Below are positions 7,821-25,323 of a stretch of 64,000 nucleotides of DNA, piece after piece. Position 1 is the first letter of the stretch; every line of letters starts with the position of its first letter. Source of the DNA: an uncultured Nitrospiraceae bacterium (GTDB lineage Bacteria > Nitrospirota > Thermodesulfovibrionia > Thermodesulfovibrionales > UBA9159); NCBI GenBank assembly GCA_964475485.1, contig CAYYWY010000002.1, positions 104,257 to 168,256 of the forward strand. Reading direction: 5' to 3'. The notes under the pieces are model-generated. The model worked only from the letters and a program-made list of their open reading frames with translations, ran no database searches and was not told where the DNA came from. The position numbers were made by a program, and so were the translations under genes.

Positions 7821-10379
7821 TCACGCCACCCTCATCATTCCGGCAGAGAGCTTGTGTTTCAGGAACTTCCCCGTGTACGAATCAGGATTGAGGGAGACAT
7901 CCTCGGGGCTCCCCGATGCGATCAACCGTCCTCCCCCTTCCCCTCCTTCAGGACCAAGGTCGATGATGTAATCGGAGGACTTGATCACGTCCAGGTTGTG
8001 TTCGATCACGATCACAGTGTTGCCCCTGTCCACGAGACTGTTCAGGACATCGAGGAGCTTCTGGATGTCGACAAAGTGAAGACCTGTAGTGGGTTCATCG
8101 AGTATATAGAGGGTGTTGCCGGTCGACCTCTTAGCGAGTTCCCTCGAAAGACGGAGTCTCTGTGCCTCACCGCCGGAAAGGGTGGGCGCCGGCTGTCCCA
8201 GCTGGAGATATCCGAGTCCCACATCCTCAAGTATCCCGAGTTTTTGCCTAACCACCGGAATGGCTGTGAAAAATTCAAGAGCCTCCGACACGGTCATTGA
8301 GAGTACTTCTGAGATATTCTTTGATTTATACCGTATGTTCAGGGTTTCACTGTTGTACCTCTTTCCTTTGCATATACCGCACTGGACATATGCATCCGGA
8401 AGAAAATGCATCGCGACCTTCAGGATGCCGCCGCCGTGGCACTTCTCGCATCTTCCTCCAGAGACGTTGAAACTGAATCTCGAGGATGTGTATCCTCTCA
8501 CCTTTGATTCCTGGACCTGGGCGAACAGATCCCTGATATGGGTGAAGACCCCTGAATATGTCGCCGGGTTGGACCTCGGCGTCCTTCCGAGCGGTGCCTG
8601 GTCGATGCAGATAATGTTATCTATTTTTTCGATTCCCACGATGGATTCGTGCTTCCCCGGCGTAAGATGACTCTTGTGGATGCTCCGCATAAGCGCCTTA
8701 TAGAGGATCTCGATGATGAGGGTGCTCTTGCCCGAGCCGGAGACGCCAGTGACGCACGTGAAGATCCTGAGTGGAATGCGCACATCAATATCCTTGAGAT
8801 TGAATTCCGCCGCACCCCTGATTTCAAGGAAATCAGCGGGCTTTCTCCTCTTCCGCGGCAGAGGTATTAAGAGTTCCCCTTTGAGATACTTTCCGGTTAT
8901 GGACCTTTCATCGGACTGTATCTGCGCGGGGGTTCCTCCGGCCACAACCCAGCCTCCCCTGGCGCCCGCCCCCGGACCGATATCGATTACATGATCCGCC
9001 CATCGTATGGTTTCCTCGTCATGCTCCACCACGATGACTGTGTTGCCGGCATCCCTGATGGATGAAAGACTCTCGAGGAGCCTTGTACAATCCCTTGGAT
9101 GGAGACCTATGCTCGGTTCGTCAAGGACATATAGCACCCCGGTAAGTGAAGAACCCATCTGGGTTGCAAGGCGTATCCTCTGGGCCTCGCCTCCCGAAAG
9201 GGTGAGGGACATCCTGTCCAGGGTTAGATACCCAAGACCCACCTTCATGAGAAAATTAAGCCTGTCGCTCACTTCCTTCAGTACCCTAAATGCTATTGTC
9301 TTTTCCCTTTCGGTCAGAGCGAGGACATTGATGAATGAAAAGGCCTCCTCAACGGTCAGGCGCGAGAATTCCCCGATATTTCTGCCCTGGATCTTTATGC
9401 TCAAGGCTTCCTTTCTCAGCCTAAGGCCGCCACACTCCTTACATTGCCTCATCTTTGAAGGAAGCACAAGTAACTCTTCGGCATCCATCCCCGCGGCGCT
9501 TGAGACCTCATCGCCTTCTCCTATGCCAAGGATGCCGAGTCCCCGGCAGCGCGGACAGGCGCCGTATGTGCTGTTGAATGAGAAAAGCCGGGGGTTCACC
9601 TCCGGGAAGCTTGCGCCGCAGTTCTGGCAGGCCATCGCCTTGCTGAATGGAATGTCCCTGTCTTCGGACACCAGATTGATTACAACGGTATCAGAATATC
9701 TCAGGGCGAGGTCGATGGCTTCCCTTATCTTCTTCTCTATGCCGTGCTTGATAATGAGCCTGTCGATAACGACCTCTATGGTATGCCTTTTCTGTTTCTT
9801 GAGGCTGAGTTCCTCGGTAAGGTCCGCTATTACGCCGTCTATCCTCGCCCTCACGAAGCCCTCATTCCTCATCTCGGCAAGCTCTTTCTTGTACTCTCCC
9901 TTTCTGTCCCGTACGATAGGTGCGAGGACCTGGAGCCTCGTACCGGGCGGCATGGACATCACGGAGTCGAGGATGCTCCCGATGTCTCTTGTCGAAATTG
10001 TGCCTCCGCAGTTGTAACAGAATGGTCTGCCGATTCGGGTATAGAGAACGCGCATGTAGTCATATATTTCTGTTATGGTTCCGAGGGTGGAGCGCGGGCT
10101 CCTTGTGACGGTCTTCTGATTGATGGCGATTGAAGGAGAAAGGCCCTCGATAGAATCAACATCGGGCTTCTGGAGCTGCTCAAGGAACTGGCGTGCGTAT
10201 GCTGAGAGGCTCTCCACATACCGTCTCTGTCCTTCAGCGTAAATGGTGTCTATGGCGAGGGAGGATTTGCCTGAGCCTGAAGGACCTGTGATGACTGTCA
10301 TCTTTTCCCTGGGGATTGACACGTCGATGTTTTTGAGATTGTGCTCTCGTGCGCCCTTTATGACAATAAAGTTTTGCAT
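7821..10379 (-). CDS. uvrA: Excinuclease ABC subunit A (UvrA), short form lacking the insertion domain
   Basis: [59 protein letters not shown]. Two ABC modules (GPSGSGKSS / GVSGSGKST; LSGGEAQR twice) and zinc modules are present. Start at 10379 (852 codons). Only about 35 residues separate CPRCRGLG from CKECGG. Confidence 0.9.
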
Positions 10380-10484
10380 GACGGCAATTCTTACTATAAC
10401 GTAAAAATGGAATGCTTTCAACGTGGTGCATGGGCGGTTTGCCGCACCAATGCCGCACTTTGGCTAGCCCATTTCAGCCAGATA

Positions 10485-10521
10485 TGACACATCTGTCACG
10501 AAAAACCTGACAGGATTGTCA
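10485..10521. promoter_or_regulatory. Two copies of a 14-bp palindrome TGACA-N4-TGTCA (candidate enhancer-binding-protein UAS)
   Basis: tgacaCATCtgtca at 10485-10498 and tgacaGGATtgtca at 10508-10521. Starts are 23 bp apart, and the sites lie about 45-80 bp upstream of the -24 element at 10563. Confidence 0.5.
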
Positions 10522-10562
10522 CGGCCTTTCGTAAATGATGAGATATTGAATGATTTCTGCAT

Positions 10563-10578
10563 TGGCATAAGGATTGCT
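10563..10578 (+). promoter_or_regulatory. Sigma54 (-24/-12) promoter candidate
   Basis: TGGCATaaggaTTGCT: GG and GC separated by 10 nt, close to the consensus TGGCAC-N5-TTGCW. About 225 nt upstream of ATG 10805. Confidence 0.6.
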
Positions 10579-10804
10579 TTTATGAAGTCCCGATTAGGAC
10601 TTGCTCATTAAGAAATCGCAATGTTGTAAGACAAATTCCTACAACCTTGTAGGATAAATTCAATTGACAATTGTCTGCATCGGTCTAATGCTTATAGTGT
10701 ATGGGAGAGATGAAAGCTGTGTTCGGGTGATGCCTTAGAACCGAGGACAAGGCCTTTTTGAAAGACAGGTTTTTCAGGGAAGGAAACAGGAAAAAGGAGG
10801 TTTC

Positions 10805-13800
10805 ATGAGAAACAGGCGAATCAGTTATTTCAGGGGACCGGCGATAATGTTTCTGGTTGCGGCAGCGTTTTTTGGCTGCCTCTTTTTTCAGACCGGCGTC
10901 CAGGCTTTTACCCTAAATGTAATTGACGGAAACGGCAACCCCATTGTCGGTGGTTTCAGATGGCTCCTTGAAGAAGACAACACCAATCAGTCTCCTCCAG
11001 GCGTACGGGTGAACAACAGCATAGGCGTCGATATACACAAGAGCCATGCACCTCTTGTTTCCAAAGGAAATGCCGCCGGGGATTATGTGATTATCAACTC
11101 AGACATCAACGGCTCTCCCCTTGATCCCGGAAAAAAATATTATGTCTCAGTTGTTCCCGACTCAGGATACACGATGAGCGGCGCGATGGTCGCTCCTGGC
11201 CAGGCAGCGGTGACGGTCAAAGTGCACAGCCTTCCCATACCTACAGCACAGATATCCGTTCTTGTCTTTGAAGATCATAACACCATTAATAACGTCTATG
11301 ACCCCGGCGAGCGTGGACTTGAAGGGTTCACGATACTCATCTCCGACCTTGCGGGGCCTGTTTCCCAGGACGCATTCGGGAACCCGCTCGGAACCGAGTA
11401 CGATGCAGGCGGCAATCCCATCCCGGGATCGGGCAACGGAGTGATCATGACGTGCACTGCCGCCGAGGTGGCAGGAGGATTGAGGGGATGTACCACCGTC
11501 GGTGAGGTGGTGATCAAGAACCTGCCGCCTGGGAAATACGGAGTCAGGGCGGTGCCACCTGCGGGTTCGAACTGGATCCAGACCTCCACTATCGAAGGAA
11601 CGCTTACGGTGGACGCATGGGTGAAAGCAAATGAACCGAGGAAGTTTTTTGAAGGTTTCGGCACAGGGTTCTATCATGTATTCCTCGGCTTTGTGGAACC
11701 GGGGAGCTTGCCTTGGGCGACTAATCCTCCCGGCGGGTCGGGTACTATTCAGGGCAGGAATGTCTTCAATCACTTCTCCCGCCCACCCACTCTTCAGGGG
11801 TTCTTCCCCGGACCCCCCGTGGAAGGCTGCTGGGTCGGCCTGAACGACCTCGTGACCAAGAGAGGTCTCATCGCCGTTCCCTGCGATGGAAACAGCAATT
11901 TCACAATTGCCGGAGTGCCTCCCGGAACATATCAGCTCGTGACATGGGACAAGAACCTCGACGCCCTGTTCGGGTTCAATCTTGTGACCGTCCCGGCCGG
12001 AGGCGGAATTGTGAATCTTGGTAATGTGCTTTCCTACAGGTGGTTCGGTACTTTGATGGGGACAGTGTTTTATGATGCCAACCAGAACGGGTTCCGCGAG
12101 CCCACAGAAACCGGGCTGCCGGATCAGGTGCTTAACATTCGTTTCCGCGACGGCTCGATGTACCAAACGACAACCACCGATATGATGGGGGAATACGCCT
12201 TTACAGAGGTCTTTCCTTTTTTCAAGTGGCTCATAGCTGAGGTGGATTTCGCCCGATATAAGGCAACAGGCATGACAACTGCCGTGGATTACGGCGGCGC
12301 GATCCCTCTTGCAAGCGGCTGGACCGTGCCTTCCTTTGATATGCTTAACCCTCAGCCGCAGGCGAGAGTTAACCCGAATACCGGCAACAACCTTTCAAGG
12401 ACAGAGAAGGGGCCTGTTCTTACTCAGGCCATGCACCTCTTTCTCAATCAGACTAACATAATCGATTGGGGTAAAGCTGACTATAGCCTCGGCCAGAACG
12501 GAGGTATTACAGGCGTTGTATATTATTCCACAACGAGAGCTGAGAACGATCCGCGATACGGAGCACCGGAACCATGGGAGCCGGGAATCCCGAGGGTTCA
12601 GGTCAATCTGTACAAAGATACGGACGCGGATGGCCTCATTGACGATATAAATGGGGTACCTGGAATCCAGCTGGCCGATGTCGATAACTTTCCCCTGGAT
12701 AATTTTCCGGGGCCTGAAGACATCGACAGGAACGGCAACGGGATATTCGATTTAGGCGACGCGATAGATGTTACCCACACAGACAGCTGGGACGACAATA
12801 CTCCGACAGGATGCATCCAGAATCTCCCGGTAATCAACGGCAAGCCCGTGAGGGAATGCTTCGACAACTTCGGCACATGGAACCAGGTGCGTCCGGGCGT
12901 GTTCGACGGCGGGTACGCTTTTCCTACCAGCACGACCATAGTTCTTTCACAGGGCACATATATCGTGGAGACTGTTCCGCCTCCTGGGTATGAGATCGTG
13001 AAGGAGGAGGACAAGAACGTTGATTTCGGTGAGGATTATATTCCCCAGTTGCTTCCTCCTGCCTGTGTCGGGGACGACCATGTAGTGCCCCCCGAACTAG
13101 CCCTCTTCCCGGGTGTGCCGGGTGCTTTTGCGGGCCAGACCAGGCCCCTTTGCGATAAGAAACAGGTTCTTGTGACGCAGAGCAGAAACGCTGCTGCCGA
13201 CTTCTTCCTTTTCACAGAGGTACCGAAGGCGGCGCGTGCAGTGGGTTTCGTCAACAACGACCTCGCGGCCGAGTTCGACAAGAACAGCCCTATTTATGGA
13301 GAGAAATCTGCCCCTGCCTGGATACCCATATCGATTCAGGACTGGACAGGACATGAAGTTGCAAGGGTGTACGCAGACGAGTGGGGTTCCTATAACGCCA
13401 TGATACCTTCCACCTATACCATGAATGTCCCGGCTCCTTCAGGCGTTTCTCCGAATATGCTGACACTTGTGCTGAATCATCCTATCCGTCCTGACGGCTC
13501 TATTGATCCCTTCTATGACCCGAACTACGCCACATCACCTTGGACGTTCCAATTCATGCCTGCGACCACGAGCTATCTCGACACGCCGAATGTCCCTCTT
13601 GCCGCATTCGTCGGCTATCCCAGAGGACAGGTTGATATGGAGCCCGCGGACAAAACGCCGGTAATATCGAAGGTGAGCGGGCCTGAAGGAGGACCTCTCG
13701 TATGCAACACGGGAGGCTCCCTTACCATTAGCTCTTCAGGTTCTGTGCAGGTGCCCAACCCTGACTATAATCCTTCGGTTCCGGGAAGTACCGCTCTTAT

Positions 13801-16423
13801 TACGCGGGATTACGGATTCGGAGCAACGCAGGGAAGTGTGAAGGTGGGCAATACGAGCCTCGCAATTACAAGCTGGAGCAACACGGTCATCTCTGCCACG
13901 GTACCGGCAGGAACGCCCACCGGACAGCTTGCAGTCACAAGGGCTGACAATAGCAGGTCTTCTGAAATAGGAGTGACCGTCCATGTCGTTGACTGCGCGA
14001 CTGTGACAAGACATCACGTTTCGCCAGGACAGTCGATTCAAGCGGCTATCGATGCGGCTTCCCCCGGAGATATCATCCTTGTTAATCCGGGAACATACCA
14101 TGAGAACGTCATCCTTTATAAGAACGTTGTTCTGCAGGGCTCGGGAGCAGGCGCATCCATGGGGGATTTGAATGCGACGATTATCTATGCAAATCCAAGC
14201 CCTGCTGACAGTCTTGCGGCATGGCACAATAAGGTTAGTCTGATAAGGGGCAATGACCCGTTCATTGCGAATGAAGCACCCGGAATAATGGTCTTCGGTG
14301 ACATAGCAGGCTCAGGCTTCTCCCTCACACCGGCGACTACTCCCCGTATCGACGGTTTCCAGATATTCGGGGCCATTCAGGGAGGCGGTATCTACCTTTA
14401 CAATCAGGCCCATCAGATGGTGATCAGCAATAACAGGATAAGAGGCAATCAGGGAAGCTACGGCGGCGGTATCACCGTTGGGGTGCCTGATGCCGGGACC
14501 GGGGCGTTCAGTAACTCTAATGTTACTGTCCAGTTCAACAGGATTACCGGCAATGGGGGAGTTTTCGGTGCAGGCGGAGTGGAGCTTGCCGCCGGTTCCG
14601 ACAATTATATTGTTCAGAACAACATAATCACCGGCAATCTGTCCCGCTGGAACGGCGGGGGCATAGCCCATTATGGGTTGAGCGACAATGGGCTTATTGC
14701 TAAGAACAAGATCACTTTTAACGAAGTGTTCTTCGGTGTGGCGGTCGGCGGCGAAGGAGGGGGTATCTTCATAAGCGGCGAGATCGCCAACGGAAATCTG
14801 CCTGGCGCTCTTGGGGACGGGGCCGGCAATGTGACGATCAACGGAAACCTGATCCAGGGCAATCTTGCAGGTGCAGGAAGCGGCGGAGGAATCAGGGCGC
14901 TCTGGTTCAATGGCGCCGATGTCCCCGACCCAATGCCGGACTACGCCCTTAACATCTTTAACAACGTGATGGCGAATAATGTAGCCGGATTTGCAGGCGG
15001 AGGCATTGCGCTGCAGGACGTGGCGGCGGCCAATATCATCAACAATACCATCGCATACAACGACAGCACGGCCACAACAGCGAACGCCTTTGCTCCCGGC
15101 AGCCTGAGTTCAACGCCCCAGGGAGCGGGCATTGTCTCGAATGTTCATTCAGCAGAACTTGCGGCAGCCACCGGCCAGACATTTTCCAATCCCCTTCTTG
15201 CAAACAATATCATCTGGCGCAACCGTTCATTCTATAACAATCATACCCTCAACGCGGGCGCAGGGGGGCTGGCTCCCAACCCGGCCGGTCCCTATTGGGA
15301 CCTTCAGGTTTCAGGGACTGCCGGAACCATGAATCCAATGTATTGCCTCCTTACGAGTACGACCGGCTATGATCCTTCCAACGTCTCCGGGGATCCGATG
15401 TTCGTCCTTGGATACACAAATTCACTTGCATCGTCAACGGTCCTGGATGAAGCCGGTAACGCGATCACGGTGCGGTACACGCCCCTGAGGGAAAACGCAG
15501 GAAACTACCACATCCTCGGAACATCGCCGGCTGTTGACAAGGGAGCCAATACCTATCTCGCATCTTTCCCTGTGCTGAACAGTGACTATGACGGAGACGT
15601 GAGGCCGAGTCCCGGAACGGGGATTTCAGACATAGGAGCAGACGAAATCAGCAAGACCACGGGTCTCCTTACAATCCAGAAAACAGGCACGGGAACGGGC
15701 ACGGTGACGAGCGGCGACGGTCTCATCAACTGCGGGGCCAGCTGCTCGGCGAATTATCCCCTGGGGACAGTGGTGACCCTCAATGCGCTACCCACTACGG
15801 GATCTGTTTTCGCAGGGTGGTCGGGCGCCTGTACGGGCACGAATCCGACATGCCAGGTCACAATGAATGCCGACAAGACGGCAACGGCAATGTTTAACGT
15901 AGCACCGGCGTGTACTTATTCCATTACCCCGACTTCCCAGAACTTCGGCTCCGGAGGAGGCACCGGTAATGTGAATGTGACAGCCACTGCCGGATGCAAC
16001 TGGACCGCTGTAAGCAACGCGGCGTGGATCACGGTCACCGGAGGTGCAAGCGGGACGGGCAACGGTGTTGTCACTTACTCCGTGGCTGCGAATACAGGCG
16101 GCGCAAGGACGGGGACGGTCACGATCGCAGGCCAGAATTTCACTGTGTCGCAGGCAGGAGCAGGCGTTACCTGTACATACTCGATCACCCCGACGTCCCA
16201 GGTGTTCCGTTCAGGCGGAGGCACCGGCAGCGTAAGCGTGATAACCACGTCAGGGTGCGAGTGGACGGCAAACAGCAACGCCGGATGGATCAAGCTCACC
16301 GGAGCAAGCAATGGAAAGGGCAGTGCGACGGTGACCTACTCGGTATCGGCGAATATCACCGGTATGACGAGGACAGGAACGATAACTATCGCGGGAAAGA
16401 CGTTCACTGTTACCCAGTATTAG
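10805..16423 (+). CDS. Giant (1872 aa) secreted multidomain protein: Ig-like/SdrD-B-like repeats, IPT/TIG, right-handed beta-helix, InlB B-repeat, 2x BACON-like
   Basis: Signal peptide [34 protein letters not shown]. SdrD-B-like segment [48 protein letters not shown]-like [12 protein letters not shown]...[18 protein letters not shown]. PbH1 repeats [46 protein letters not shown]. InlB B-repeat [25 protein letters not shown]. Two modules of [10 protein letters not shown]...GCxWTA.SNAxWI...VTYSV.AN...RTGT.TIAG..FTV.Q. Confidence 0.85.
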
Positions 16424-16505
16424 GATGGCTATGTTTCAGACACTATTCTTAAAGGATGCTTCCCCCGGTTCGACCGGAGGCGCGGGCCTGAAAAGGAGTG
16501 ATGAT

Positions 16506-17729
16506 ATGAGACTGAATTGTCGTTACGTGCAATACCTCTTTGCATTGCTTTTTGTGGCAGTGTTGATGATGCCGGCGGAAGGCGCGGTAAATATTCAGTG
16601 TCCCTGTCCCCCCGGCACCCCTGTTCAGCCCCCACCACCCGTGGGATCAGGGAATATTGAATGCACCATCGGCTTGAGGAATATCGCCTGCAAACATCTC
16701 ACCGCGGGGGATGGTTTTGTAAAGATGGCGGACGGCAGCGATATCTATATCTTCGGGTTCTCCGACGTCACGGGGCTTCAGGCGGACCAGGTTATGAACG
16801 CCGGGATGCTGGCGGCGAATTTCTCCGCGCCTACAATCATCGTGAGGGAAGGGCAGGAACTGTATCTGACCCTCACCAATGTGGGCATGGTGATGAGGCC
16901 GGACCTCTTTGACCCTCATACTGTCCATTATCACGGATTCCCTAATGCCTCTTCGGTATTTGACGGCGAGCCTATGGCGTCAATATCAGTCAATATGGGG
17001 GCGAGCCTCACTTATTATTACAACATTGTCGAGCCGGGTACGTATATGTATCACTGTCATGTCGAGGCCACGGAGCATATGCAGATGGGCATGCTCGGCA
17101 ATCTCTTTGTGACACCCGCACAGGACGGGACTACCATCAACGGTTTTTCGAAGTTCGCCTATAATGATACGGACGGCTCCACAGGGTATGATGTTGCATA
17201 CCCCGTTCAGATCGTAGCCTTCGATCCCATATTCCATGAGGCGGACCTTATCATTCAGCCTTTGCCTTTTGCTTCAATGTTCGATTCCTACGGGATGCTG
17301 AACGGAAGGGGATATCCGGACACAATAAACACCTCGGTGATCTTCAACAAAGACGGGATGCCTTCTCAGCAGATGAACGCGTTGATTACAGCAACCAAAG
17401 GTCAGAAAATACTCCTTCGGGTCTCCAGCCTCTCCACAGTCGATTTCAATACGTTGATATCTCCCTCTATCCCGATGAAAGTGGTGGGAAGAGGTGCGAG
17501 AATAGCCAGGGGCCCGGACCCCGACGGCGCCGGGCCGCTTCAGGGAAAGAACCTCTACTACACCACGAACTCCCTTACCCTCGGAGGCGGGGAGTCGTTT
17601 GACGTAATCCTTGATACATCCGCTGTTCCCGCAGGAACATACTTCCTGTACTCTTCAAATCTTCACAACCTTAGCAACGACAGCGAGGATTTTGGAGGGA
17701 TGATGACTGAAATCGTTGTGAACCCGTGA
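16506..17729 (+). CDS. Two-cupredoxin-domain multicopper-oxidase subunit A (domain 1 carries T1 site plus four T2/T3 His; domain 2 ligand-free)
   Basis: ATG 16506 after AAAGGAG; signal peptide MRLNCRYVQYLFALLFVAVLMMPAEGA. DPHTVHYHGF (HxxHxH) and GTYMYHCHVEATEHMQMGMLGNLFV (HCH..H....M). No HxH motif in the C-terminal half. Confidence 0.85.
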   Translation: MRLNCRYVQYLFALLFVAVLMMPAEGAVNIQCPCPPGTPVQPPPPVGSGNIECTIGLRNIACKHLTAGDGFVKMADGSDIYIFGFSDVTGLQADQVMNAGMLAANFSAPTIIVREGQELYLTLTNVGMVMRPDLFDPHTVHYHGFPNASSVFDGEPMASISVNMGASLTYYYNIVEPGTYMYHCHVEATEHMQMGMLGNLFVTPAQDGTTINGFSKFAYNDTDGSTGYDVAYPVQIVAFDPIFHEADLIIQPLPFASMFDSYGMLNGRGYPDTINTSVIFNKDGMPSQQMNALITATKGQKILLRVSSLSTVDFNTLISPSIPMKVVGRGARIARGPDPDGAGPLQGKNLYYTTNSLTLGGGESFDVILDTSAVPAGTYFLYSSNLHNLSNDSEDFGGMMTEIVVNP

Positions 17730-17753
17730 GTGAGAATGATCAGGAGGAAAGAT

Positions 17754-19058
17754 ATGAATAATCAAGCTCAAAAGCACAAGAGGATGCTCATTATGCTAAT
17801 GGCTGCGCTCCTGGTCGCTATTCCCGCGACCGGGGTGGCTGTTATTGATGGCATCAGCGGAACAACATTCAGCCTGACGGCAAAGGATGGTTATATCAAC
17901 ACAGGGGACGGAGATTCGGTTTACATGTGGGGATATGCCGACGGGGCAGGTCCAATGCAGTATCCCGGACCAACCCTGATCCTCAACCAGGGAAGTGTTG
18001 TTACGGTGACCCTGACTAACCAGCTGGCCGTTCCTGTTTCGATTGTTTTTCCCGGGCAGGATGTCACTGCCACGGGAGGGATGCCGGGGTTGATCACCCG
18101 GGAAGCGCCTCCCGGCGGTAGCGTCACTTATACGTTCACAGTCTCACAGCCTGGGACGTACATGTATCACAGCGGAACGCGTCCTGACCTTCAGGTCGAG
18201 ATGGGGCTAATAGGTGCGATAGTCGTTAGACCGGCACCAGGGCCAAATTGTCCAGCTCCGGCCCCGGACCCTTCGAAGCCGAGCAGGGGATACGCCTATT
18301 GCAGTCCTGATGCCTACTTCGACAGGGAATACCTCTTTCTCCTTTCCGATATGGACCCGTCGATCCATCAGCTTGTGGAGACGGGTAAAATGGAGAACGT
18401 AGACAATACGATGCGCTATCCGGTTTTATGGTTCATCAACGGGAGAAATCTTCCCGACACGCTGGCACCTGCCTTTGCATCCTGGCTTCCGAACCAGCCG
18501 TATAACATCTTTCCTCAGATGCATCCGTTTGAGAAGGTGCTGATGAGGATCATCGGCGGCGGAAGAGATCCACATCCATTTCACACTCATGGCGCAAACC
18601 ACCTCATCATCGCGCGCGACGGCAGGCTTCTGAAAACCACGGCGGCCACTTTACCGGACCTGGCCGAGTCCGATTTCACTACAACCTCCGTTCCCGGAGA
18701 GACAGTCGATGCTATTTACGTATGGACCGGCGAGAAGCTGGGCTGGGACATTTACGGCCATACTGATCCCACGTCTCCTTGCGATCCGACAGTGGAGTAC
18801 TGTCCTGACCACGGCAAGCCTTTTCCCGTAGTCCTCCCCAATCAGCTGGACCTGACCAATGGGATGTTCTGGAGCGGGAGTCCTTTCCTCGGAATTGAAG
18901 GTACTCTTCCTCCCGGTGAAGGCGGCTTTAATCCCTATGCCGGAATATTTATGATGTGGCACTCCCACAATGAAAAAGAATTGACGAATAACAATATTTT
19001 CGTCGGTGGCATGGCAACAATGGCGGTAATCCAGCCACCCGCCGCGCCGATCCCGTAA
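17754..19058 (+). CDS. Two-cupredoxin-domain multicopper-oxidase subunit B (domain 1 ligand-free; last domain has two HxH motifs, no T1 Cys)
   Basis: ATG 17754 after AGGAGGA; signal peptide. Domain 1 has VSIVFPGQ and GTYMYHSGTRP where MCOs have HWHG and WYHSH. The C-terminal domain has RDPHPFHTHGANH and IFMMWHSHNEKEL (HSH instead of HCH). Confidence 0.85.
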   Translation: MNNQAQKHKRMLIMLMAALLVAIPATGVAVIDGISGTTFSLTAKDGYINTGDGDSVYMWGYADGAGPMQYPGPTLILNQGSVVTVTLTNQLAVPVSIVFPGQDVTATGGMPGLITREAPPGGSVTYTFTVSQPGTYMYHSGTRPDLQVEMGLIGAIVVRPAPGPNCPAPAPDPSKPSRGYAYCSPDAYFDREYLFLLSDMDPSIHQLVETGKMENVDNTMRYPVLWFINGRNLPDTLAPAFASWLPNQPYNIFPQMHPFEKVLMRIIGGGRDPHPFHTHGANHLIIARDGRLLKTTAATLPDLAESDFTTTSVPGETVDAIYVWTGEKLGWDIYGHTDPTSPCDPTVEYCPDHGKPFPVVLPNQLDLTNGMFWSGSPFLGIEGTLPPGEGGFNPYAGIFMMWHSHNEKELTNNNIFVGGMATMAVIQPPAAPIP

Positions 19059-19071
19059 TGAGGAGGATGAA

Positions 19072-21717
19072 ATGAAAATGAAGGACATCTTGTCGGTCGG
19101 CAAACTCGGAGCGGTTGTTCCTATGCTGATGGTCGTCACCATTCTTGCGGCGGGAATATCCCATGGCGCCAGTGTTGACGTTTATCTCAAAGCAGGGGTG
19201 ACCACAAAGACTATTAACGGTGCTGCAATTGCTATGTGGGGCTTTGCTCAGTGTACGGACGGAACCTTTGCCTCTTGCGGGGCCGTATCAGTGCCAGGTC
19301 CGGCCCTGACGGCTACCGAAGGTGATGCTCTGAATATCCATCTCAGAAACGATCTTACCGGGCCATTCACCGAGCCTGTTTCGATCGTTATACCTGGCCA
19401 GATTACTGCCATGAATCCGGTCTGGATTGACGGCCTCGGAAATGTTGTCTCCACCGGCTCACGGTTGCCGGGCGACGTCACTTCGAGGGTGAGGTCTTTT
19501 ACGGCGGAGACGCCTGTAGGTGGAACCTCGACTTACACCTGGAGTAACGTTAAGTCGGGAGCGTACATATATCAGAGTGGTACACACCCGGCGGTTCAGG
19601 TACAGATGGGCTTATATGGAGTCCTCGAAGTCTTGCCGGTGACACCAGCCCGGGCTTACGAAGATCCTTCAACCGCTTATGATGCAAGGGTGGCACTTTT
19701 ATTCAGTGAAATCGATCCCGCCCTTCACAACGCAGTTGCGACAGGCACATACGGCCCCCCAGCTGGACCCGGAAGGATGACGAGCACAGTCAATTATAAT
19801 CCCGCCTACTTCCTCATTAATGGAGAACCGTACACGGCCGGTCTTGCGCCGATACCAGCTGGCCTTCCCGGGCAGAAGGTGCTTGTCCGTTTCCTTAATG
19901 CGGGGCTGGAATCGAAGGTTCCTACGCTCCAAAATCAATATATGACAGTGATCGCTGAAGACGGCAACCTCTATCCCAATCCGAAGGAACAGTACTCTGT
20001 ATTTCTGCCCGCAGGGAAAACTCTCGACGCAATTATGTCTTCTGCAAGCGCAGGATATATTCCAGTATATGACAGAATGCTGAACCTGACAAGCGGACCT
20101 GCATCGCCTGGAGGCATGCTGAGGTACCTGGAAATTGCCTCGCTTAACAAGTATGTTCTTACGGTGAACAAAGCAGGTTCAGGGACCGGGATAGTGGAGG
20201 CGACGAGTCTTCCCGGAGGCATAAGCTGCGGACTAACCTGCAATAGGGCATACAACGAGGGTACTATGGTTAAACTCAATGCGACACCTGCGGCAGGTTC
20301 GGTATTCGCCGGCTGGTCCGGGGCATGTGCCGGCACTGGTCCGACGTGCATTGTCACCATGGACGCCGCCAAGACAGTTACGGCAACTTTCAATGTTTCC
20401 GGTTCATGGATCACGGTGCTATCACCTAACGGAGGAGAGAACTTCCAGATTGGTACTACCCAGACGATTCGGTGGTCCTACAGCGGAACTCCCGGTACTG
20501 CTGTGCATATTCAGCTGCTCAAGGGGGGGGCGATTTATTCGACTATCACTAACAGTACCCCTATAGGTTCCGGTCAGTACAACTGGAACATCGGCAGATA
20601 CGCTGCCGGTAGTACGTACACGATAAAGATAACAAGTACGACAAACAGTCTTTACACAGACACGAGTGACGCTGCGTTCACTATATCCGGGGCTGGATGT
20701 GTCTATTCGATCTCGCCCACATCCATCTTCTTCCCAGTTGCAGGAGGCACTGGAAACGTGAATGTTACTGCATCTGCCGGATGTGCCTGGACGGCTGCAA
20801 GCAATGTGCCGTGGATAGCGATAACGGCGGGTGCAACCGGGACGGGCAGCGGGACAGTGACATACACTGTCTTTGCCAACACGGGAAATCTGAGAACCGG
20901 CACAATGACCATCGCAGGGAAGACCTTTACAGTGACACAGGACGGCAGTGGAGCCTGCACATATGCCATAGTTCCGACAAATCAGATCTTTAATGCAGCC
21001 GGAGGCTCAGGGAGTGTTACTGTAACCGCCCCTGCAGGATGCGCCTGGACTGCCGTGAGCAATGCTGCATGGATCACCGTTACAGGCGGAGCAGCCGGAA
21101 GCGGCAATGGTACGGTCACCTATTCGGTGGGCGCTAATGCGGGCGGTGCAAGAACCGGAACAATGACTATTGCAGGGCAAACGTTCACGGTGAATCAGTT
21201 GGCGCCGGTTGCTTGCACATATTCGTTGTCTCCAACGAGTCAGGCGTTTCTTGGTGCTGGGGGTACCGGCAGTGTGGCCGTGACAGCGCCGGCAGGTTGT
21301 GCATGGACCGCGGCGAGCAACGCCGCCTGGATCGCTGTTACCGGCGGGGCCGGGGGTAACGGCAACGGGACGGTGAATTATTCCGTAGCGCCGAACGCCG
21401 GGAATCAGAGGACAGGGACAATTACTATCGGAGGACAGACATTCACGGTGATTCAGGGCGGCGTTACAGTATCGGGCAAGATATTGAACGCCTCCGGTAT
21501 TCCAATTCCCGGGGTTCTGCTTACTCTTACAGGCCCGGTGACGACAACCACCACTACCGACAGATCGGGCGAGTACCAGATCAGGGGCGTGCCCGACGGC
21601 GGCTATATATTGACGCCGAGCCTGACAGGCTACGGCTTTACGCCTGCAAGCAGGTCATTCACTGTAAGCGGAAACAATGTTGAGGCACAGAACTTTACCG
21701 GAGCCAGATTGAGATAA
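19072..21717 (+). CDS. Copper-ligand-free two-cupredoxin-domain protein (subunit C) fused to InlB B-repeat, Kre9/KNH-like, 3x BACON-like and CarboxypepD_reg-like domains
   Basis: Signal peptide. MCO-like fold markers PGPALTATEGDALNIHLRN, VSIVIPGQ, GAYIYQSGTHPAVQVQMGLYGVLEV and YFLINGEPY..GQKVLVRFLNAG, but no HxH or HCH anywhere. Then [28 protein letters not shown]; WITVLSPNGGENFQIGTTQTIRWSYSG; three C.Y.I.PT...GC.WTA.SN..WI modules; VSGKILNASGIPIPGVLLTLTG...GEYQIRGVPDGGYILTP. Confidence 0.8.
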   Translation: MKMKDILSVGKLGAVVPMLMVVTILAAGISHGASVDVYLKAGVTTKTINGAAIAMWGFAQCTDGTFASCGAVSVPGPALTATEGDALNIHLRNDLTGPFTEPVSIVIPGQITAMNPVWIDGLGNVVSTGSRLPGDVTSRVRSFTAETPVGGTSTYTWSNVKSGAYIYQSGTHPAVQVQMGLYGVLEVLPVTPARAYEDPSTAYDARVALLFSEIDPALHNAVATGTYGPPAGPGRMTSTVNYNPAYFLINGEPYTAGLAPIPAGLPGQKVLVRFLNAGLESKVPTLQNQYMTVIAEDGNLYPNPKEQYSVFLPAGKTLDAIMSSASAGYIPVYDRMLNLTSGPASPGGMLRYLEIASLNKYVLTVNKAGSGTGIVEATSLPGGISCGLTCNRAYNEGTMVKLNATPAAGSVFAGWSGACAGTGPTCIVTMDAAKTVTATFNVSGSWITVLSPNGGENFQIGTTQTIRWSYSGTPGTAVHIQLLKGGAIYSTITNSTPIGSGQYNWNIGRYAAGSTYTIKITSTTNSLYTDTSDAAFTISGAGCVYSISPTSIFFPVAGGTGNVNVTASAGCAWTAASNVPWIAITAGATGTGSGTVTYTVFANTGNLRTGTMTIAGKTFTVTQDGSGACTYAIVPTNQIFNAAGGSGSVTVTAPAGCAWTAVSNAAWITVTGGAAGSGNGTVTYSVGANAGGARTGTMTIAGQTFTVNQLAPVACTYSLSPTSQAFLGAGGTGSVAVTAPAGCAWTAASNAAWIAVTGGAGGNGNGTVNYSVAPNAGNQRTGTITIGGQTFTVIQGGVTVSGKILNASGIPIPGVLLTLTGPVTTTTTTDRSGEYQIRGVPDGGYILTPSLTGYGFTPASRSFTVSGNNVEAQNFTGARLR

Positions 21718-21763
21718 CGATCGGAGCCGGAGAATGCAAGTTCACCCTTGGTTCGATGTGAGG

Positions 21764-21797
21764 AAAGGGCCGGGTTGCTTTGGCAACCCGGCCCTTT
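21764..21797 (+). terminator. Strong hairpin after the four-gene operon (15-bp perfect stem, 4-nt loop)
   Basis: aaagggccgggttgc tttg gcaacccggcccttt. It is followed by aaaacc rather than a U-tract, so it is an atypical intrinsic terminator or an RNA-stabilising hairpin. Confidence 0.55.
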
Positions 21798-21869: not shown

Positions 21870-22322
21870 ATGAAGACACGTAATCTTGCAGCGATAACTT
21901 CTTTTCTGTTTCTCTTCCTTGTTCCTCCTCAGGTCTTCTCCGAAGGCGGAACTAAAGAAGCTCCGGCTGCCGTGCAAAAAGGAGACCATGGCATTGAAAA
22001 GAGGTGGGGTGTGCAGATAATATCCTTACGGCTGTCTGCAGGAGGTGCCATGCTCGATTTCAGGTACAGGCTTACGGATCCTGAAAAGGCCAGGCCCCTC
22101 TTCGACCGCGGGATCAAGCCCTATCTTATCGATGAGACGAGCGGCGCCAAGCTTCTTGTGCCTAACGCCCCCAAGCTGGGAGCCCTCAGGCAGACCCCGA
22201 AGAATCCGGTTGCAGGCAAGAATTATTTTGTCCTTTTTACGAATCCGGGCGTTGTTAAGGCAGGGAACAAGGCGACCGTTGTTATCGGTGATTTTAGGGC
22301 TGAAAACCTCACCGTGGAATAG
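21870..22322 (+). CDS. Secreted hypothetical protein
   Basis: ATG 21870 gives MKTRNLAAITSFLFLFLVPPQVFSEG (signal peptide). I do not recognise any motif. Coding-like composition and no competing ORF. Confidence 0.5.
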   Translation: MKTRNLAAITSFLFLFLVPPQVFSEGGTKEAPAAVQKGDHGIEKRWGVQIISLRLSAGGAMLDFRYRLTDPEKARPLFDRGIKPYLIDETSGAKLLVPNAPKLGALRQTPKNPVAGKNYFVLFTNPGVVKAGNKATVVIGDFRAENLTVE

Positions 22323-24725: not shown

Positions 24726-25067
24726 TTAAAGCCCGAGCCCTTCAATTATCCTCTTTTTCTGCTTTTCTATTATCTTCTGGCCGTAATCAAGGGACTTGAT
24801 GACTTCCCTTTTGGCACTGTCGGAGAGCTCGACACCCCTCTCAATAATATCGGAGGCGGTGTCCTTTACCGTGCCGACGAAATCATCCACGGTCCGGATC
24901 GTATCCTCCACAAGCTCCACCGCGTCACGCCTTATTCGCTTCGCCGCCTTTGAAATATCCTTTCTTGTTTCGCGTCCGGACTTGGGCGCATAGAGAAGAG
25001 CAATCCCTGCTCCGATGAGTCCTCCCAGCAAAAAAGCGCCTGCAACGGCCCTGGTATCGTTATGCAT
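24726..25067 (-). CDS. YtxH domain-containing protein
   Basis: AFLLGGLIGAGIALLYAPKSGRETRKDI, followed by a helical/charged region typical of YtxH-like general-stress proteins. Confidence 0.8.
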   Translation of the reverse strand: MHNDTRAVAGAFLLGGLIGAGIALLYAPKSGRETRKDISKAAKRIRRDAVELVEDTIRTVDDFVGTVKDTASDIIERGVELSDSAKREVIKSLDYGQKIIEKQKKRIIEGLGL

Positions 25068-25284
25068 AATCGGTCTCCTTTCCGCGATTCCTTATGATTT
25101 AACTCTATCAGGAATGGGCGTAAGAGTCAATTCCACTCGAGAGAGGTATCGGATGGGAAGAGTTCCTTGCCTGTCCGGCTTCCGGCTTGCTGTGAGGCGC
25201 AGAAAAAGCCGCAGGAAAGCGGAAATTGACTTTTCAGCGGTGAGTATGTCAAAGTACACCTGCTTGGAAGTTTTTGTCAGACGA

Positions 25285-25323
25285 AAGACCGCAAGAACTT
25301 TTGACGTTGCGGTCTTTTTTTTT
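25285..25323 (+). terminator. Orphan Rho-independent terminator in the leader of the RRM-protein gene
   Basis: aagaccgcaa (25285-25294), 12-nt loop, ttgcggtctt (25307-25316), then a T-run to 25323. No upstream + strand CDS (ytxH is divergent). The RRM gene starts at 25366. Confidence 0.65.

What the first reader, a model, noticed from the sequence alone, without database searches (positions are those of the whole stretch)
10485..21797. Putative sigma54- and enhancer-controlled operon coupling a 1872-aa secreted beta-helix/Ig-repeat protein to the MCO trio
- A -24/-12 element (TGGCATaaggaTTGCT, 10563-10578) is preceded by two copies of the palindrome TGACA-N4-TGTCA (10485-10498 and 10508-10521, 23 bp apart). 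This is the classical layout of a bacterial enhancer-binding-protein UAS.
- Four ORFs follow with short gaps (82, 24 and 13 nt using my start calls) and end at a 15-bp perfect hairpin (21764-21797).
- All four products have signal peptides.
- The first combines SdrD-B-like and IPT/TIG Ig folds with a PbH1 beta-helix, a fold used by polysaccharide-active enzymes and by the copper-site assembly factor NosD.

A tightly regulated extracellular oxidase machine is implied; metal or polymer oxidation is only a guess. The substrate cannot be read from the sequence. The long leader (~215 nt) also contains a 16-bp palindrome CCTACAAccTTGTAGG (~10639-10654) and a 10-bp palindrome GACAATTGTC (~10668-10677).
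Basis: partly seen in the sequence, partly recalled or inferred. Interest (0 to 1): 0.7.

Follow-up and report, generated by a model that had tools for sequence, protein, structure and literature searches.

The report
Sigma-54 operon for split multicopper oxidase
A sigma-54-type promoter precedes a widely conserved, uncharacterised gene cluster that appears to build an extracellular copper oxidase from three related subunits, only two of which together can form one active site, mounted on a giant scaffold protein.

Summary
Two TGACA-N4-TGTCA palindromes, a perfect -24/-12 element, four Sec-signal ORFs and a 15-bp hairpin lie at the stated coordinates and exceed chance.

**Regulation.** The promoter is identical in a close relative whose flanks have diverged. 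The nearest orthologous clusters carry similar elements next to enhancer-binding-protein genes. The leader palindromes are not conserved.

**The gene module.**
- Giant protein, MCO1, MCO2, MCO3 and a 150-aa protein encoded beyond the hairpin occur together in 41 of 42 fully covered loci.
- Carriers span more than 10 phyla, and at least 583 species genomes encode an MCO1 relative.

**The oxidase.**
- MCO1 keeps the type-1 copper site and half of the trinuclear-cluster histidines.
- MCO2 keeps only the other half.
- MCO3 keeps none.
- I infer one heterotrimeric two-domain multicopper oxidase with a single catalytic centre. This is not shown.

**The scaffold.** Natural giant-MCO1 and MCO3-giant fusions indicate that the giant protein is a physical partner.

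**Prior work.** A likely related cluster in Sideroxydans lithotrophicus is induced on magnetite (Keffer et al. 2025). I could not compare those sequences.

**Verdict.** The substrate is unknown; a solid-phase or metal electron donor is my leading guess. This is a new variant of a known kind.

The parts
10485..10523 (+). Tandem 16-nt repeats TGACAcatcTGTCACG and TGACAggatTGTCACG, each holding a 14-bp palindrome. They start 23 bp apart and are centred about -97 and -74 from the predicted start site. Candidate enhancer-binding-protein site.
   Evidence: These are the only two matches in the window (expected 0.04). Repeat structure. In relative L085 the second copy keeps both half-sites and the first has two changes. 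Function is inferred.
10563..10578 (+). Sigma-54 -24/-12 promoter TGGCAT-aagga-TTGCT. The predicted start site is near 10589 and the leader is about 216 nt.
   Evidence: Unique in the window (expected 0.06). It lies in a 19-nt block identical in L085 while both flanks diverge. Equivalent elements occur in L090, L022 and L006.
10619..10661 (+). A 23-nt tandem duplication in the leader. Its junction creates the palindrome TCCTACAA-cc-TTGTAGGA (10637-10654). Probably not functional.
   Evidence: Direct repeat D1 and inverted repeat I6. L085 has only one copy, seen as a 24-nt gap.
10671..10698 (+). Sigma-70-like site TTGTCT-16-TATAGT inside the leader. Possible alternative or basal promoter.
   Evidence: It matches 9 of 12 positions, and the scan found no excess of such sites over shuffles. 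The -10 hexamer and most of the -35 hexamer are conserved in L085.
10805..16423 (+). Giant secreted protein of 1872 aa. It has a conserved core of about 1615 aa made of Ig-like beta-sandwich arrays, a TIG-like domain and a right-handed beta-helix. Its variable tail has Flg_new_2 and two BACON domains. Proposed scaffold or substrate-contact subunit.
   Evidence: Pfam domains. The N-terminal region is 50-70% identical across phyla over its first 1042 aa. AlphaFold model: pLDDT 79, pTM 0.72, all-beta, with only Ig-array matches in the PDB. It is fused to MCO1 or MCO3 in other genomes.
16506..17729 (+). MCO1, a two-domain cupredoxin protein. Domain 1 carries a full type-1 Cu site (H139, C185, H192, M197) and four trinuclear-cluster His (H142, H144, H184, H186). 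Domain 2 has no ligands.
   Evidence: Pfam Cu-oxidase domains. The ligands are invariant in 79 of 79 orthologues. The best PDB matches are the homotrimeric two-domain MCOs 3G5W, 3GDC and 2ZWN, followed by NirK.
17754..19058 (+). MCO2, a two-domain cupredoxin protein. Domain 1 has lost its ligands. Domain 2 keeps HPxHxHG (H274, H277, H279) and WHSH (H403, H405), and has no type-1 Cys. A conserved insertion of about 75 aa lies in domain 2.
   Evidence: Ligand conservation is 76-77 of 77. These motifs align to the domain-2 motifs of 3G5W and 2ZWN. Reciprocal ligand loss relative to MCO1 is seen by profile-profile alignment.
19072..21717 (+). MCO3, 881 aa. It has two ligand-free cupredoxin domains (about the first 360 aa) and a variable tail of Flg_new_2, Kre9_KNH, three BACON and CarboxypepD_reg domains.
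   Evidence: Pfam domains. No conserved HxH or HCH motif in 70 orthologues. It is a full-length paralogue of MCO1 and MCO2.
21764..21797 (+). A 15-bp perfect hairpin with a 4-nt loop, 46 nt after the MCO3 stop. It may be a weak terminator, an attenuator or an RNA-stability element. It is not the end of the functional module.
   Evidence: Energy -36.9 kcal/mol, z = -6.8. It failed the terminator scan for lack of a T-run. Stable hairpins are common in MCO3-to-fifth-gene gaps of other loci, and also in giant-to-MCO1 gaps.
21870..22322 (+). Fifth conserved gene, 150 aa. It is a secreted small beta-sandwich protein with no Pfam family, and an apparent lipobox occurs in some orthologues. Accessory role unknown.
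   Evidence: Present in 49 of 50 loci with enough downstream sequence. 374 homologues, none named by their sources. Alignment and LxGC lipobox motifs. Model pLDDT 80 with no significant PDB match.

Best explanation
The region is a sigma-54-dependent transcription unit. An unidentified enhancer-binding protein probably activates it by binding the tandem TGACA-N4-TGTCA(CG) repeats, centred about 74 and 97 bp upstream of the start site.

It encodes a conserved five-protein extracellular oxidase module. All five proteins are exported by the Sec pathway.

The three cupredoxin paralogues descend from a type-C two-domain multicopper oxidase, an enzyme that works as a homotrimer with its trinuclear copper cluster at subunit interfaces. 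Here the ligands have been lost reciprocally. I infer that MCO1, MCO2 and MCO3 form a pseudo-six-domain heterotrimeric ring with one type-1 copper in MCO1 domain 1. The single trinuclear O2-reducing cluster would sit at the interface of MCO1 domain 1 and MCO2 domain 2. MCO3 would close the ring and carry surface-binding tails.

The giant protein is a physical partner that scaffolds the oxidase or presents substrate to it. The 150-aa protein is an accessory factor.

Electrons from an extracellular donor would enter at the type-1 copper and reduce O2 to water. A solid-phase or metal donor such as mineral Fe(II) is my leading guess.

**Shown:** the sequence elements, their conservation, the synteny, the ligand pattern and the fusions.

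**Inferred:** sigma-54 dependence, activator binding, heterotrimer assembly, extracellular location and substrate.
For: **Promoter**
- The consensus -24/-12 element is unique in the window. It is identical in L085 within diverged flanks.
- L090 (giant protein 70% identical) has a histidine kinase, a REC-sigma-54 activator, TGGCATTAGTCTTGCT, a stand-alone receiver and then the cluster. L022 has the same arrangement and L006 has a similar promoter.
- Strong elements are 6.7-fold enriched upstream of the giant gene. Seven of the nine loci with one also have an adjacent activator gene (p = 1.3e-5).
- The window encodes an activator and a second -24/-12 element, so the genome uses sigma-54.

**Module**
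- MCO2 follows MCO1 in 76 of 76 loci, MCO3 is present in 69 of 70, the fifth gene in 49 of 50, the giant gene in 42 of 42, and all five in 41 of 42.
- Carriers span Nitrospirota, Desulfobacterota, Gamma- and Betaproteobacteria, Acidobacteriota, Planctomycetota, Verrucomicrobiota, Myxococcota, Bdellovibrionota and Binatia.
- Isolates that carry it include Geobacter sp. DSM 9736 and Cupriavidus metallidurans CH34. Dissulfuribacter thermophilus has the giant-protein homologue.

**Split site**
- The MCO1 ligands are invariant in 79 of 79 orthologues and the MCO2 ligands in 76-77 of 77. MCO3 has none.
- The losses are reciprocal in profile alignments.
- The MCO2 motifs align to the domain-2 cluster motifs of trimeric 3G5W and 2ZWN.
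- The distant CH34 branch shows the same pattern.
- Two-domain MCOs are trimers; the SLAC trimer holds three trinuclear clusters and three type-1 coppers (PMC3918160).

**Physical coupling**
- Giant-MCO1 fusions without an internal signal peptide occur in L042, L056, L072 and L083.
- MCO3-giant fusions occur in L031, L053, L059 and CH34.

**Secretion**
- No Tat motifs were found.
- Type II secretion genes lie directly upstream in CH34.

**Function hint**
- The three-cupredoxin cluster Slit_1816-1818 of Sideroxydans is more abundant on magnetite than on Fe(II)-citrate, and similar clusters are reported in Ralstonia and Paraburkholderia (PMC12016527).
- Those genera, with Cupriavidus, are the only ones my plasmid search hit.
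Against: - There is no transcript or start-site data.
- No rpoN gene and no cognate activator lie next to the cluster in the window.
- The window's own activator (31924-33285) has a different candidate target next door. It is no closer to the cluster-linked activators than they are to each other, at 37-38% identity.
- The first palindrome has two changes in the close relative. The palindrome motif is not found in other loci except L085 and one chance site in L070.
- Only 9 of 58 loci have a strong sigma-54 element. Many instead have a NarL-type two-component system and a stand-alone receiver.
- A conserved sigma-70-like site lies in the leader.
- Heterotrimer assembly was not modelled or tested.
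- Many carriers belong to lineages known (my knowledge) as strict anaerobes, which fits poorly with an O2-reducing enzyme.
- The link to the Sideroxydans cluster rests on shared architecture and taxa, not on a direct sequence comparison.
Confidence: 0.55

Rival explanations
1. Transcription starts from an ordinary sigma-70 promoter, for example TTGTCT-16-TATAGT at 10671-10698. The upstream palindromes would then be operators for a repressor or activator unrelated to sigma-54, possibly acting on the divergent uvrA gene. The -24/-12 match would be a conserved coincidence.
For: The sigma-70-like site and the block after it are conserved in L085. The palindromes lie between two divergent genes, with a uvrA promoter-like site at 10421-10393. 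No activator gene is adjacent. Most orthologous clusters lack a strong -24/-12 element.
Against: The sigma-70 scan shows no enrichment over shuffles (11 found against 8.6 expected). The -24/-12 element is a full consensus match, unique in 64 kb, and conserved within diverged flanks. The closest orthologous clusters have the same element next to activator genes. The palindromes lie 64-100 bp from the uvrA promoter-like site, which is too far for typical repression.
Confidence: 0.2
2. The three cupredoxin proteins do not form one enzyme. MCO1 would work alone or as a homotrimer, like copper nitrite reductase or a cuprous oxidase, using its type-1 site and a smaller interface copper site. MCO2 and MCO3 would be copper-binding or structural proteins.
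For: NirK enzymes are among the best PDB matches of MCO1 and MCO2. MCO1 has extra invariant His residues (H65, H245) that could complete a different site. No assembly data exist.
Against: MCO2 keeps exactly the four canonical domain-2 cluster histidines in 76-77 of 77 orthologues while lacking any type-1 site, which is hard to explain without a partner supplying the other four. MCO1, MCO2 and MCO3 are adjacent in nearly every locus. The pattern is retained in the distant Burkholderiales branch.
Confidence: 0.15
3. The giant protein is the substrate rather than a subunit. The oxidase would cross-link or oxidise it, for example through Tyr or Cys, to build a surface layer, sheath or matrix, as laccases do in spore coats and cuticles.
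For: The giant protein folds like adhesins and pilins. The tails of the giant protein and MCO3 are variable surface-display domains. A subtilisin-like protease is linked in 48 of 87 loci, which suggests processing.
Against: The 1600-aa core is 50-70% identical across phyla, unusually constrained for a matrix protein. Covalent fusions to MCO1 or MCO3 in several lineages argue for fixed stoichiometry in a complex.
Confidence: 0.12
4. The complex is as proposed, but its role is defence rather than energy metabolism. It would scavenge O2 or detoxify Cu(I) outside the cell in microaerophiles and anaerobes, using soluble reductants.
For: Many carriers are Thermodesulfovibrio, Desulfatibacillum, Desulfococcus, Syntrophobacterales, Kiritimatiellia, Geobacter and Dissulfuribacter. 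Tight signal-dependent control fits a stress response. Cupriavidus metallidurans CH34 is a metal-resistance specialist.
Against: Nothing in the cluster resembles known copper-resistance partners, and NCBIfam CopA and CueO scores are far below cut-off. The large scaffold, surface-binding tails and type II secretion linkage suggest contact with an external solid or polymer. The Sideroxydans cluster responds to magnetite.
Confidence: 0.2

Closest known systems
Type-C two-domain multicopper oxidases (Nitrosomonas europaea blue copper oxidase, PDB 3G5W; metagenomic mgLAC, 2ZWN)
   Same: Two cupredoxin domains per chain. The type-1 site and HxxHxH/HCH motifs are in domain 1 (as in MCO1). The HxxHxH and HxH motifs are in domain 2 (as in MCO2). 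These are the best PDB matches, and the motifs align.
   Different: The known enzymes are homotrimers in which every chain carries all ligands; the SLAC trimer holds three type-1 and three trinuclear centres (PMC3918160). Here the ligands are split between two paralogues, a third has none, identity to solved structures is low (E about 1e-12 to 1e-16), and export is by Sec rather than Tat.
Sideroxydans lithotrophicus ES-1 three-cupredoxin cluster Slit_1812-1818 (Keffer et al. 2025, PMC12016527)
   Same: Three adjacent cupredoxin genes. Two have MCO motifs. The third is larger, lacks motifs and has adhesin-like and polysaccharide-lyase-like domains. All are predicted extracellular, and similar clusters are reported in Ralstonia and Paraburkholderia. 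My search found the Ralstonia, Paraburkholderia and Cupriavidus versions to be homologous, with an MCO3-giant fusion.
   Different: I could not compare the Slit sequences directly. That cluster also has a SCO1/SenC protein and a cytochrome, which are absent here. In the window the adhesin and beta-helix part is a separate 1872-aa protein. The paper does not propose a split-site heterotrimer or sigma-54 control.
Six-domain multicopper oxidases (ceruloplasmin; MnxG of the Bacillus Mnx complex)
   Same: The predicted end product is six cupredoxin domains in a ring with a single trinuclear cluster. Like Mnx, the oxidase would work with accessory subunits (my knowledge; Mnx is cited in PMC12016527).
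   Different: Those are single polypeptides. This would be three chains. No MnxE or MnxF homologues were seen.
Geobacter OmpB/OmpC and Leptothrix MofA extracellular multicopper proteins
   Same: Large secreted multicopper proteins tied to metal oxide redox chemistry. OmpB is secreted by an atypical type II system (PMC5566968). Here type II secretion genes adjoin the cluster in CH34.
   Different: Those are single large MCOs with mofB/mofC-type neighbours. Homology beyond the cupredoxin fold was not tested.
NtrC-type sigma-54 promoters with tandem upstream activator sites (for example glnAp2)
   Same: GG/GC elements with canonical spacing and two dyad-symmetric sites about 70-100 bp upstream. 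REC-AAA+-HTH activators are encoded beside the orthologous clusters.
   Different: The activator for this copy is unknown and not adjacent. The site sequence matches no activator motif I know (my knowledge).
NosD copper-site assembly factor
   Same: A periplasmic right-handed beta-helix.
   Different: Only a 42-residue N-terminal cap matches, 24.9 bits against a cut-off of 300. This is generic to PbH1 beta-helices.

Membership tests
Sigma-54-dependent promoter | GG at -24 and GC at -12 with fixed spacing, matching TGGCAC-N5-TTGCW | tested here: met
   TGGCATAAGGATTGCT at 10563-10578. Unique in the window, expected 0.06.
Sigma-54-dependent promoter | Conservation under selection in relatives | tested here: met
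   A 19-nt block is identical in L085 amid diverged flanks. Equivalent elements occur in L090, L022 and L006.
Sigma-54-dependent promoter | rpoN and an AAA+ activator present in the genome | tested here: inconclusive
   rpoN is not in the 64-kb window. A REC-Sigma54_activat-HTH_8 protein is encoded at 31924-33285, which implies that sigma-54 is used.
Sigma-54-dependent promoter | Upstream activator sites bound by the cognate activator; start site about 12 nt after the GC | not testable with these tools
   The candidate sites (10485-10523) sit at a suitable distance. Binding and start site need experiments.
Two-domain multicopper oxidase (type C) | Two cupredoxin domains | tested here: met
   Pfam Cu-oxidase, Cu-oxidase_2 and Cu-oxidase_3 in all three proteins. 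Best PDB matches are 3G5W, 2ZWN and 3GDC.
Two-domain multicopper oxidase (type C) | Type-1 copper site (His, Cys, His, Met) in domain 1 | tested here: met
   Met in MCO1 only: H139, C185, H192 and M197, invariant in 79 of 79. Absent from MCO2 and MCO3.
Two-domain multicopper oxidase (type C) | All eight trinuclear-cluster histidines (four HxH motifs) in one polypeptide | tested here: not met
   MCO1 has only the two domain-1 motifs, MCO2 has only the two domain-2 motifs, and MCO3 has none.
Two-domain multicopper oxidase (type C) | Trimeric ring with clusters at domain-1/domain-2 interfaces | not testable with these tools
The heterotrimer is inferred from ligand complementarity.
Six-domain multicopper oxidase (ceruloplasmin/MnxG type) | Six cupredoxin domains in one chain | tested here: not met
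   There are three separate ORFs with their own signal peptides. No MCO1-MCO2 or MCO2-MCO3 fusion was seen among 87 loci.
Sideroxydans-type three-cupredoxin cluster (Slit_1816-1818) | Three adjacent cupredoxin genes, two with MCO motifs, the third motif-free and linked to adhesin and lyase-like domains | tested here: met
   The architecture matches. The CH34 homologue has the motif-free copy fused to the giant protein.
Sideroxydans-type three-cupredoxin cluster (Slit_1816-1818) | Sequence homology to the Slit proteins | not testable with these tools
Indirect support: homologues occur in the taxa the paper lists.
NosD family | Full-length match to the NosD model | tested here: not met
   TIGR04247 scored 24.9 bits against a cut-off of 300, over residues 1078-1119 only.

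The most novel reading that the evidence does not exclude
This would be the first example of a multicopper oxidase whose single catalytic centre is assembled from two different, mutually dependent two-domain subunits, with a third inert paralogue. Such an enzyme is a living intermediate between homotrimeric two-domain oxidases and six-domain enzymes such as ceruloplasmin.

The oxidase would be permanently docked on a scaffold of about 1600 aa. Together they would form a widespread bacterial extracellular machine that takes electrons from solid or polymeric donors such as Fe(II) minerals and passes them to O2. It would be present even in lineages regarded as anaerobes.
Probability: 0.35. Interest if true: 0.8.

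Novelty: new variant of a known kind. Interest (0 to 1): 0.66.

Why it matters
If the heterotrimer is real, it shows how gene duplication and reciprocal ligand loss can turn a homotrimeric copper oxidase into an obligate hetero-oligomer with one active site. That is a step long postulated on the way to six-domain oxidases.

The module is found in at least 583 species genomes across more than ten phyla. Many come from groundwater, sediment and soil, and nearly all copies are annotated only as 'hypothetical' or 'multicopper oxidase domain-containing'. A function in oxidising mineral Fe(II) or Mn(II), or in extracellular O2 scavenging, would bear on iron and manganese cycling and on how anaerobes survive at oxic interfaces.

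Cultured carriers make it directly testable: Geobacter sp. DSM 9736, Cupriavidus metallidurans CH34, Ralstonia, Paraburkholderia and probably Sideroxydans lithotrophicus ES-1.

Tried and rejected
**Searches that found nothing**
- Rfam scan of the leader (10380-10900): no riboswitch or known RNA.
- NCBIfam: no specific family for any of the five proteins.
- Literature searches for a heterotrimeric or hetero-oligomeric two-domain MCO, MCO with SdrD and beta-helix, and MCO with sigma-54: nothing relevant. The Manganitrophaceae and Nitrospina papers mention other MCOs only.

**Structure work with limited yield**
- Model of the giant N-terminal region: a confident all-beta multidomain body, but Foldseek found only generic Ig-array matches (SdrD, TIE, pilins, alpha-2-macroglobulin) at TM-scores of 0.3 or less. 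No enzyme fold emerged.
- Model of the fifth protein: a small beta-sandwich with no significant match.
- I considered predicting the heterotrimer from a paired alignment of the 80 loci.

**Regulator identification**
- Identity of 37-38% between activators does not discriminate.
- The window's own activator has its own likely target at 33388-33403, with no TGACA-N4-TGTCA site.
- The palindrome motif was not found upstream of other clusters.

**Readings rejected**
- The leader palindromes as regulatory elements: one is a duplication junction and neither is conserved.
- The cluster as a compositionally foreign island: GC is 0.52-0.55, like the flanks.
- Intergenic hairpins as a feature specific to the MCO3-to-fifth-gene gap: they are equally common in giant-to-MCO1 gaps, and I made no GC-matched control.

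Full report
**1. The observation**

- The two TGACA-N4-TGTCA palindromes (10485-10498 and 10508-10521) are the only exact matches in 64 kb, against 0.04 expected. Each is part of a 16-nt repeat ending in CG, and the copies start 23 bp apart.
- TGGCATAAGGATTGCT (10563-10578) is the only match to TGGCAY-N5-TTGCW, against 0.06 expected.
- Four same-strand ORFs follow, with gaps of 82, 24 and 13 nt.
- All four begin with Sec-type signal peptides. None of their orthologues has a twin-arginine motif.
- The hairpin at 21764-21797 has a perfect 15-bp stem, at -36.9 kcal/mol and z = -6.8. It lacks a downstream U-run and failed the terminator scan.
- Pfam confirms SdrD_B, Beta_helix, Flg_new_2 and BACON in the giant protein, and cupredoxin domains in the other three.
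- IPT/TIG is sub-threshold. The NosD hit is a 42-residue cap far below cut-off.

**2. Regulation**

*Evidence from a close relative.* L085 has MCO1 96% identical and the same ApbE-uvrA-giant context. Its intergenic region is informative.
- The 19 nt containing the -24/-12 element are identical, while the 30 nt upstream are almost unalignable and 17 nt downstream are deleted.
- The second palindrome keeps both half-sites. The first has two substitutions.
- The 16-18-bp leader palindrome is missing. In the window it lies at the junction of a 23-nt tandem duplication (10619-10638 and 10642-10661).
- GACAATTGTC is broken.
- No Rfam family matches the leader.

*Evidence from the next-closest clusters.*
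- L090 (giant protein 70% identical) reads: histidine kinase, REC-AAA+-HTH activator, TGGCATTAGTCTTGCT, stand-alone receiver, giant, MCO1-3, fifth gene, S8 peptidase.
- L022 (65% identical) is organised the same way, with TGGCATTTTCCTTGCA.
- L006 has TGGCATCTTTTTTGCT 71 nt before its giant gene.

*Evidence across all loci.* Among 58 non-redundant loci, elements matching at least 10 of 11 positions occur in the 1.3 kb upstream of the giant gene in 9. That is 6.7 times the background rate. Seven of those nine have an adjacent activator gene (Fisher p = 1.3e-5).

*The window itself.* It encodes a kinase and activator pair (29990-33285) and a second -24/-12 element at 33388-33403, so the genome uses sigma-54. 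That activator probably serves its own neighbouring rhodanese operon. No TGACA-N4-TGTCA site lies there, and its 38% identity to the cluster-linked activators is no higher than theirs to each other.

I conclude that sigma-54 control is likely (about 0.8). The palindromes are a reasonable activator site (about 0.6). The activator is unidentified.

*Caveats.* A sigma-70-like TTGTCT-16-TATAGT site at 10671-10698 is also conserved in L085 and cannot be excluded as a basal promoter. Many other lineages use a NarL-type two-component system and a stand-alone receiver instead.

**3. The gene set is a conserved module and extends beyond the hairpin**

- MCO1 relatives carrying the signature peptides EHMQMGM and [FY]GGMMTEI occur in at least 583 species-representative genomes.
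- Carriers include Nitrospirota, Thermodesulfovibrionales, Desulfobacterota, Gamma- and Betaproteobacteria, Acidobacteriota, Planctomycetota, Verrucomicrobiota and Kiritimatiellia, Myxococcota, Bdellovibrionota and Binatia. All 80 loci kept from that scan are metagenome-assembled genomes.
- In loci with enough sequence, MCO2 follows MCO1 in 76 of 76. MCO3 is present in 69 of 70, the 150-aa fifth protein in 49 of 50, the giant protein in 42 of 42, and all five in 41 of 42.
- In the window the fifth gene is 21870-22322, 72 nt after the hairpin. Its product has 374 homologues, none named by their sources, and no Pfam family. An apparent lipobox occurs in some orthologues. Its model is a small beta-sandwich with no significant PDB match.
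- A subtilisin-like S8 peptidase follows the fifth gene in 48 of 87 loci but is absent from the window.
- Isolates that carry the module include Geobacter sp. DSM 9736 and Cupriavidus metallidurans CH34. Ralstonia and Paraburkholderia have MCO1 homologues, and Dissulfuribacter thermophilus has the giant-protein homologue.

**4. The 'MCO trio' is one catalytic centre split between paralogues**

- The three proteins are full-length two-domain paralogues, 25-27% identical.
- Their best solved relatives are the homotrimeric two-domain oxidases 3G5W, 2ZWN and 3GDC, followed by trimeric NirK.
- MCO1 domain 1 has H139-x2-H142-x-H144 and H184-C185-H186-x5-H192-x4-M197, invariant in 79 of 79 orthologues. 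Its domain 2 has no ligand motif.
- MCO2 domain 1 has lost these. Its domain 2 keeps H274-P-x-H277-x-H279 and W-H403-S-H405, in 76-77 of 77.
- MCO3 has neither set.
- The MCO2 motifs align with the domain-2 motifs of 3G5W (HAIHTHG, HDH) and 2ZWN.
- The Burkholderiales branch, at about 40% identity, shows the same split.

Two-domain oxidases are trimers, and the SLAC trimer holds three trinuclear clusters and three type-1 coppers (PMC3918160). That the clusters sit at subunit interfaces is my knowledge. The simplest reading is therefore an MCO1-MCO2-MCO3 ring. It would have one type-1 copper and one trinuclear cluster at the interface of MCO1 domain 1 and MCO2 domain 2.

This is an inference. 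I could not model the complex.

**5. The giant protein is a partner**

- Its first 1615 residues or so are 50-70% identical across phyla. That is far more constrained than typical adhesins.
- The model of residues 34-1075 is a confident all-beta multidomain body (pLDDT 79, pTM 0.72). It resembles only generic Ig arrays.
- In L042, L056, L072 and L083, the giant protein and MCO1 are a single ORF with no signal peptide between them.
- In L016 and L027, one ORF reads through an internal transmembrane segment and signal peptide.
- In L031, L053, L059 and C. metallidurans CH34, MCO3 is fused to the N-terminus of the giant protein.
- Independent fusions in two topologies argue for a physical complex.
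- In CH34 the cluster is immediately preceded by type II secretion genes: T2SSF, T2SSE, a secretin and two pseudopilins. Secretion-system parts also lie near several other loci. This supports an extracellular location.

**6. Comparison with what is known**

- No paper in the searchable library describes a heteromeric two-domain oxidase.
- Keffer et al. 2025 (PMC12016527) report that S. lithotrophicus ES-1 Slit_1816-1818 are three extracellular cupredoxin proteins. Two have MCO motifs. The third is larger, lacks motifs and has adhesin-like and lyase-like domains. All are more abundant on magnetite than on Fe(II)-citrate, and similar clusters occur in Ralstonia and Paraburkholderia.
- Ralstonia and Paraburkholderia, with Cupriavidus, are the only taxa my plasmid search hit. 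The CH34 locus has the described architecture.
- The Sideroxydans cluster is therefore probably the Burkholderiales branch of this family. I could not compare the sequences directly.
- OmpB and MofA are single large oxidases with different neighbours (PMC5566968).

**7. Mechanism and rivals**

My best explanation has confidence about 0.55. An activator bound at the tandem palindromes drives sigma-54 transcription of giant-MCO1-MCO2-MCO3, with the fifth gene read through the hairpin or separately expressed. The Sec-exported products assemble with copper into a scaffolded heterotrimeric oxidase at or beyond the cell surface. That oxidase passes electrons from an external donor to O2.

The rivals are listed with their refutation tests:
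- sigma-70 control;
- independent action of the three MCO-like proteins;
- the giant protein as a cross-linking substrate;
- an O2 or copper defence role.

The presence of the module in many lineages regarded as anaerobes is unexplained under an O2-reducing model.

**8. Verdict**

The finding is real. The system is a new variant of a known enzyme kind, and it is widely distributed and essentially uncharacterised.

Noticed in passing
window 29990-34502: A sensor kinase (Tll0287-like, HAMP, PAS, HisKA) and a REC-sigma-54 activator (31924-33285) are followed by a second -24/-12-like element, TGGCACTGTCCTTGCG (33388-33403). An imperfect dyad TGTTCC-N6-AGGACA lies about 60 nt upstream of it. Next come a double-rhodanese gene (33525-34502) and a YeiH-like membrane protein gene (34933-36465). 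This is probably a separate sigma-54 regulon for sulfur handling.
   Followed up: partly
The close relative L085 has a single copy.
   Followed up: yes
L016:4892-11272, L083:3659-11098, L031:12504-19700, L091:15022-23118: Natural fusions of the giant protein with MCO1 (C-terminal) or with MCO3 (N-terminal) occur in unrelated lineages. In L016 and L027 the fused ORF retains a Gly-rich stretch, a transmembrane helix, basic residues and then the MCO1 signal peptide, with no stop codon.
   Followed up: yes
L089:10484-12550 and 47 other loci; absent from the window: A subtilisin-like S8 peptidase, 43-64% identical between loci and often carrying the same Ig-like tails, follows the fifth gene in 48 of 87 loci. 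It may be a maturation or release protease. The window's copy of the cluster lacks it.
   Followed up: partly
L091:2140-11028 (C. metallidurans CH34 chromid); also L004:22-1780: Type II secretion-like genes (T2SSF, T2SSE, secretin, pseudopilins, PilN, T2SSM) lie directly upstream of the cluster in some genomes. This recalls the atypical type II secretion of Geobacter OmpB.
   Followed up: partly
window 17754-19058, MCO2 residues about 326-400: MCO2 has a highly conserved insertion of about 75 aa in domain 2 (…GWDIYGH…EY.PDHGKP.PV.LP…SGSPFLG…LPPGEGG…). Its invariant residues are D332, Y334, G335, E348 and H353, and it is absent from MCO1 and MCO3. It could be a substrate-binding or extra metal-binding element.
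   Followed up: no
MCO3-to-fifth-gene and giant-to-MCO1 intergenic gaps of L009, L023, L026, L034, L050, L053 and others: GC-rich stem-loops at -20 kcal/mol or below occur in 85% of MCO3-to-fifth-gene gaps of at least 50 nt, and in 72% of giant-to-MCO1 gaps. This may reflect differential mRNA stability or attenuation within the operon. I made no GC-matched control.
   Followed up: partly
window 10379-10421: The uvrA ORF is listed from a TTG at 10421. The conserved N-terminus ([15 protein letters not shown]) starts at the ATG near 10379. A sigma-70-like site (TTGAAA-17-TATAGT, 10421-10393, minus strand) then sits just upstream, implying a very short uvrA leader. A direct repeat TGCCGCAC occurs twice, at 10440 and 10451.
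   Followed up: no
window 25015-27590: A 223-aa protein with a eukaryote-type RRM_1 RNA-recognition motif lies next to a DeaD/DbpA-type DEAD-box helicase.
   Followed up: no
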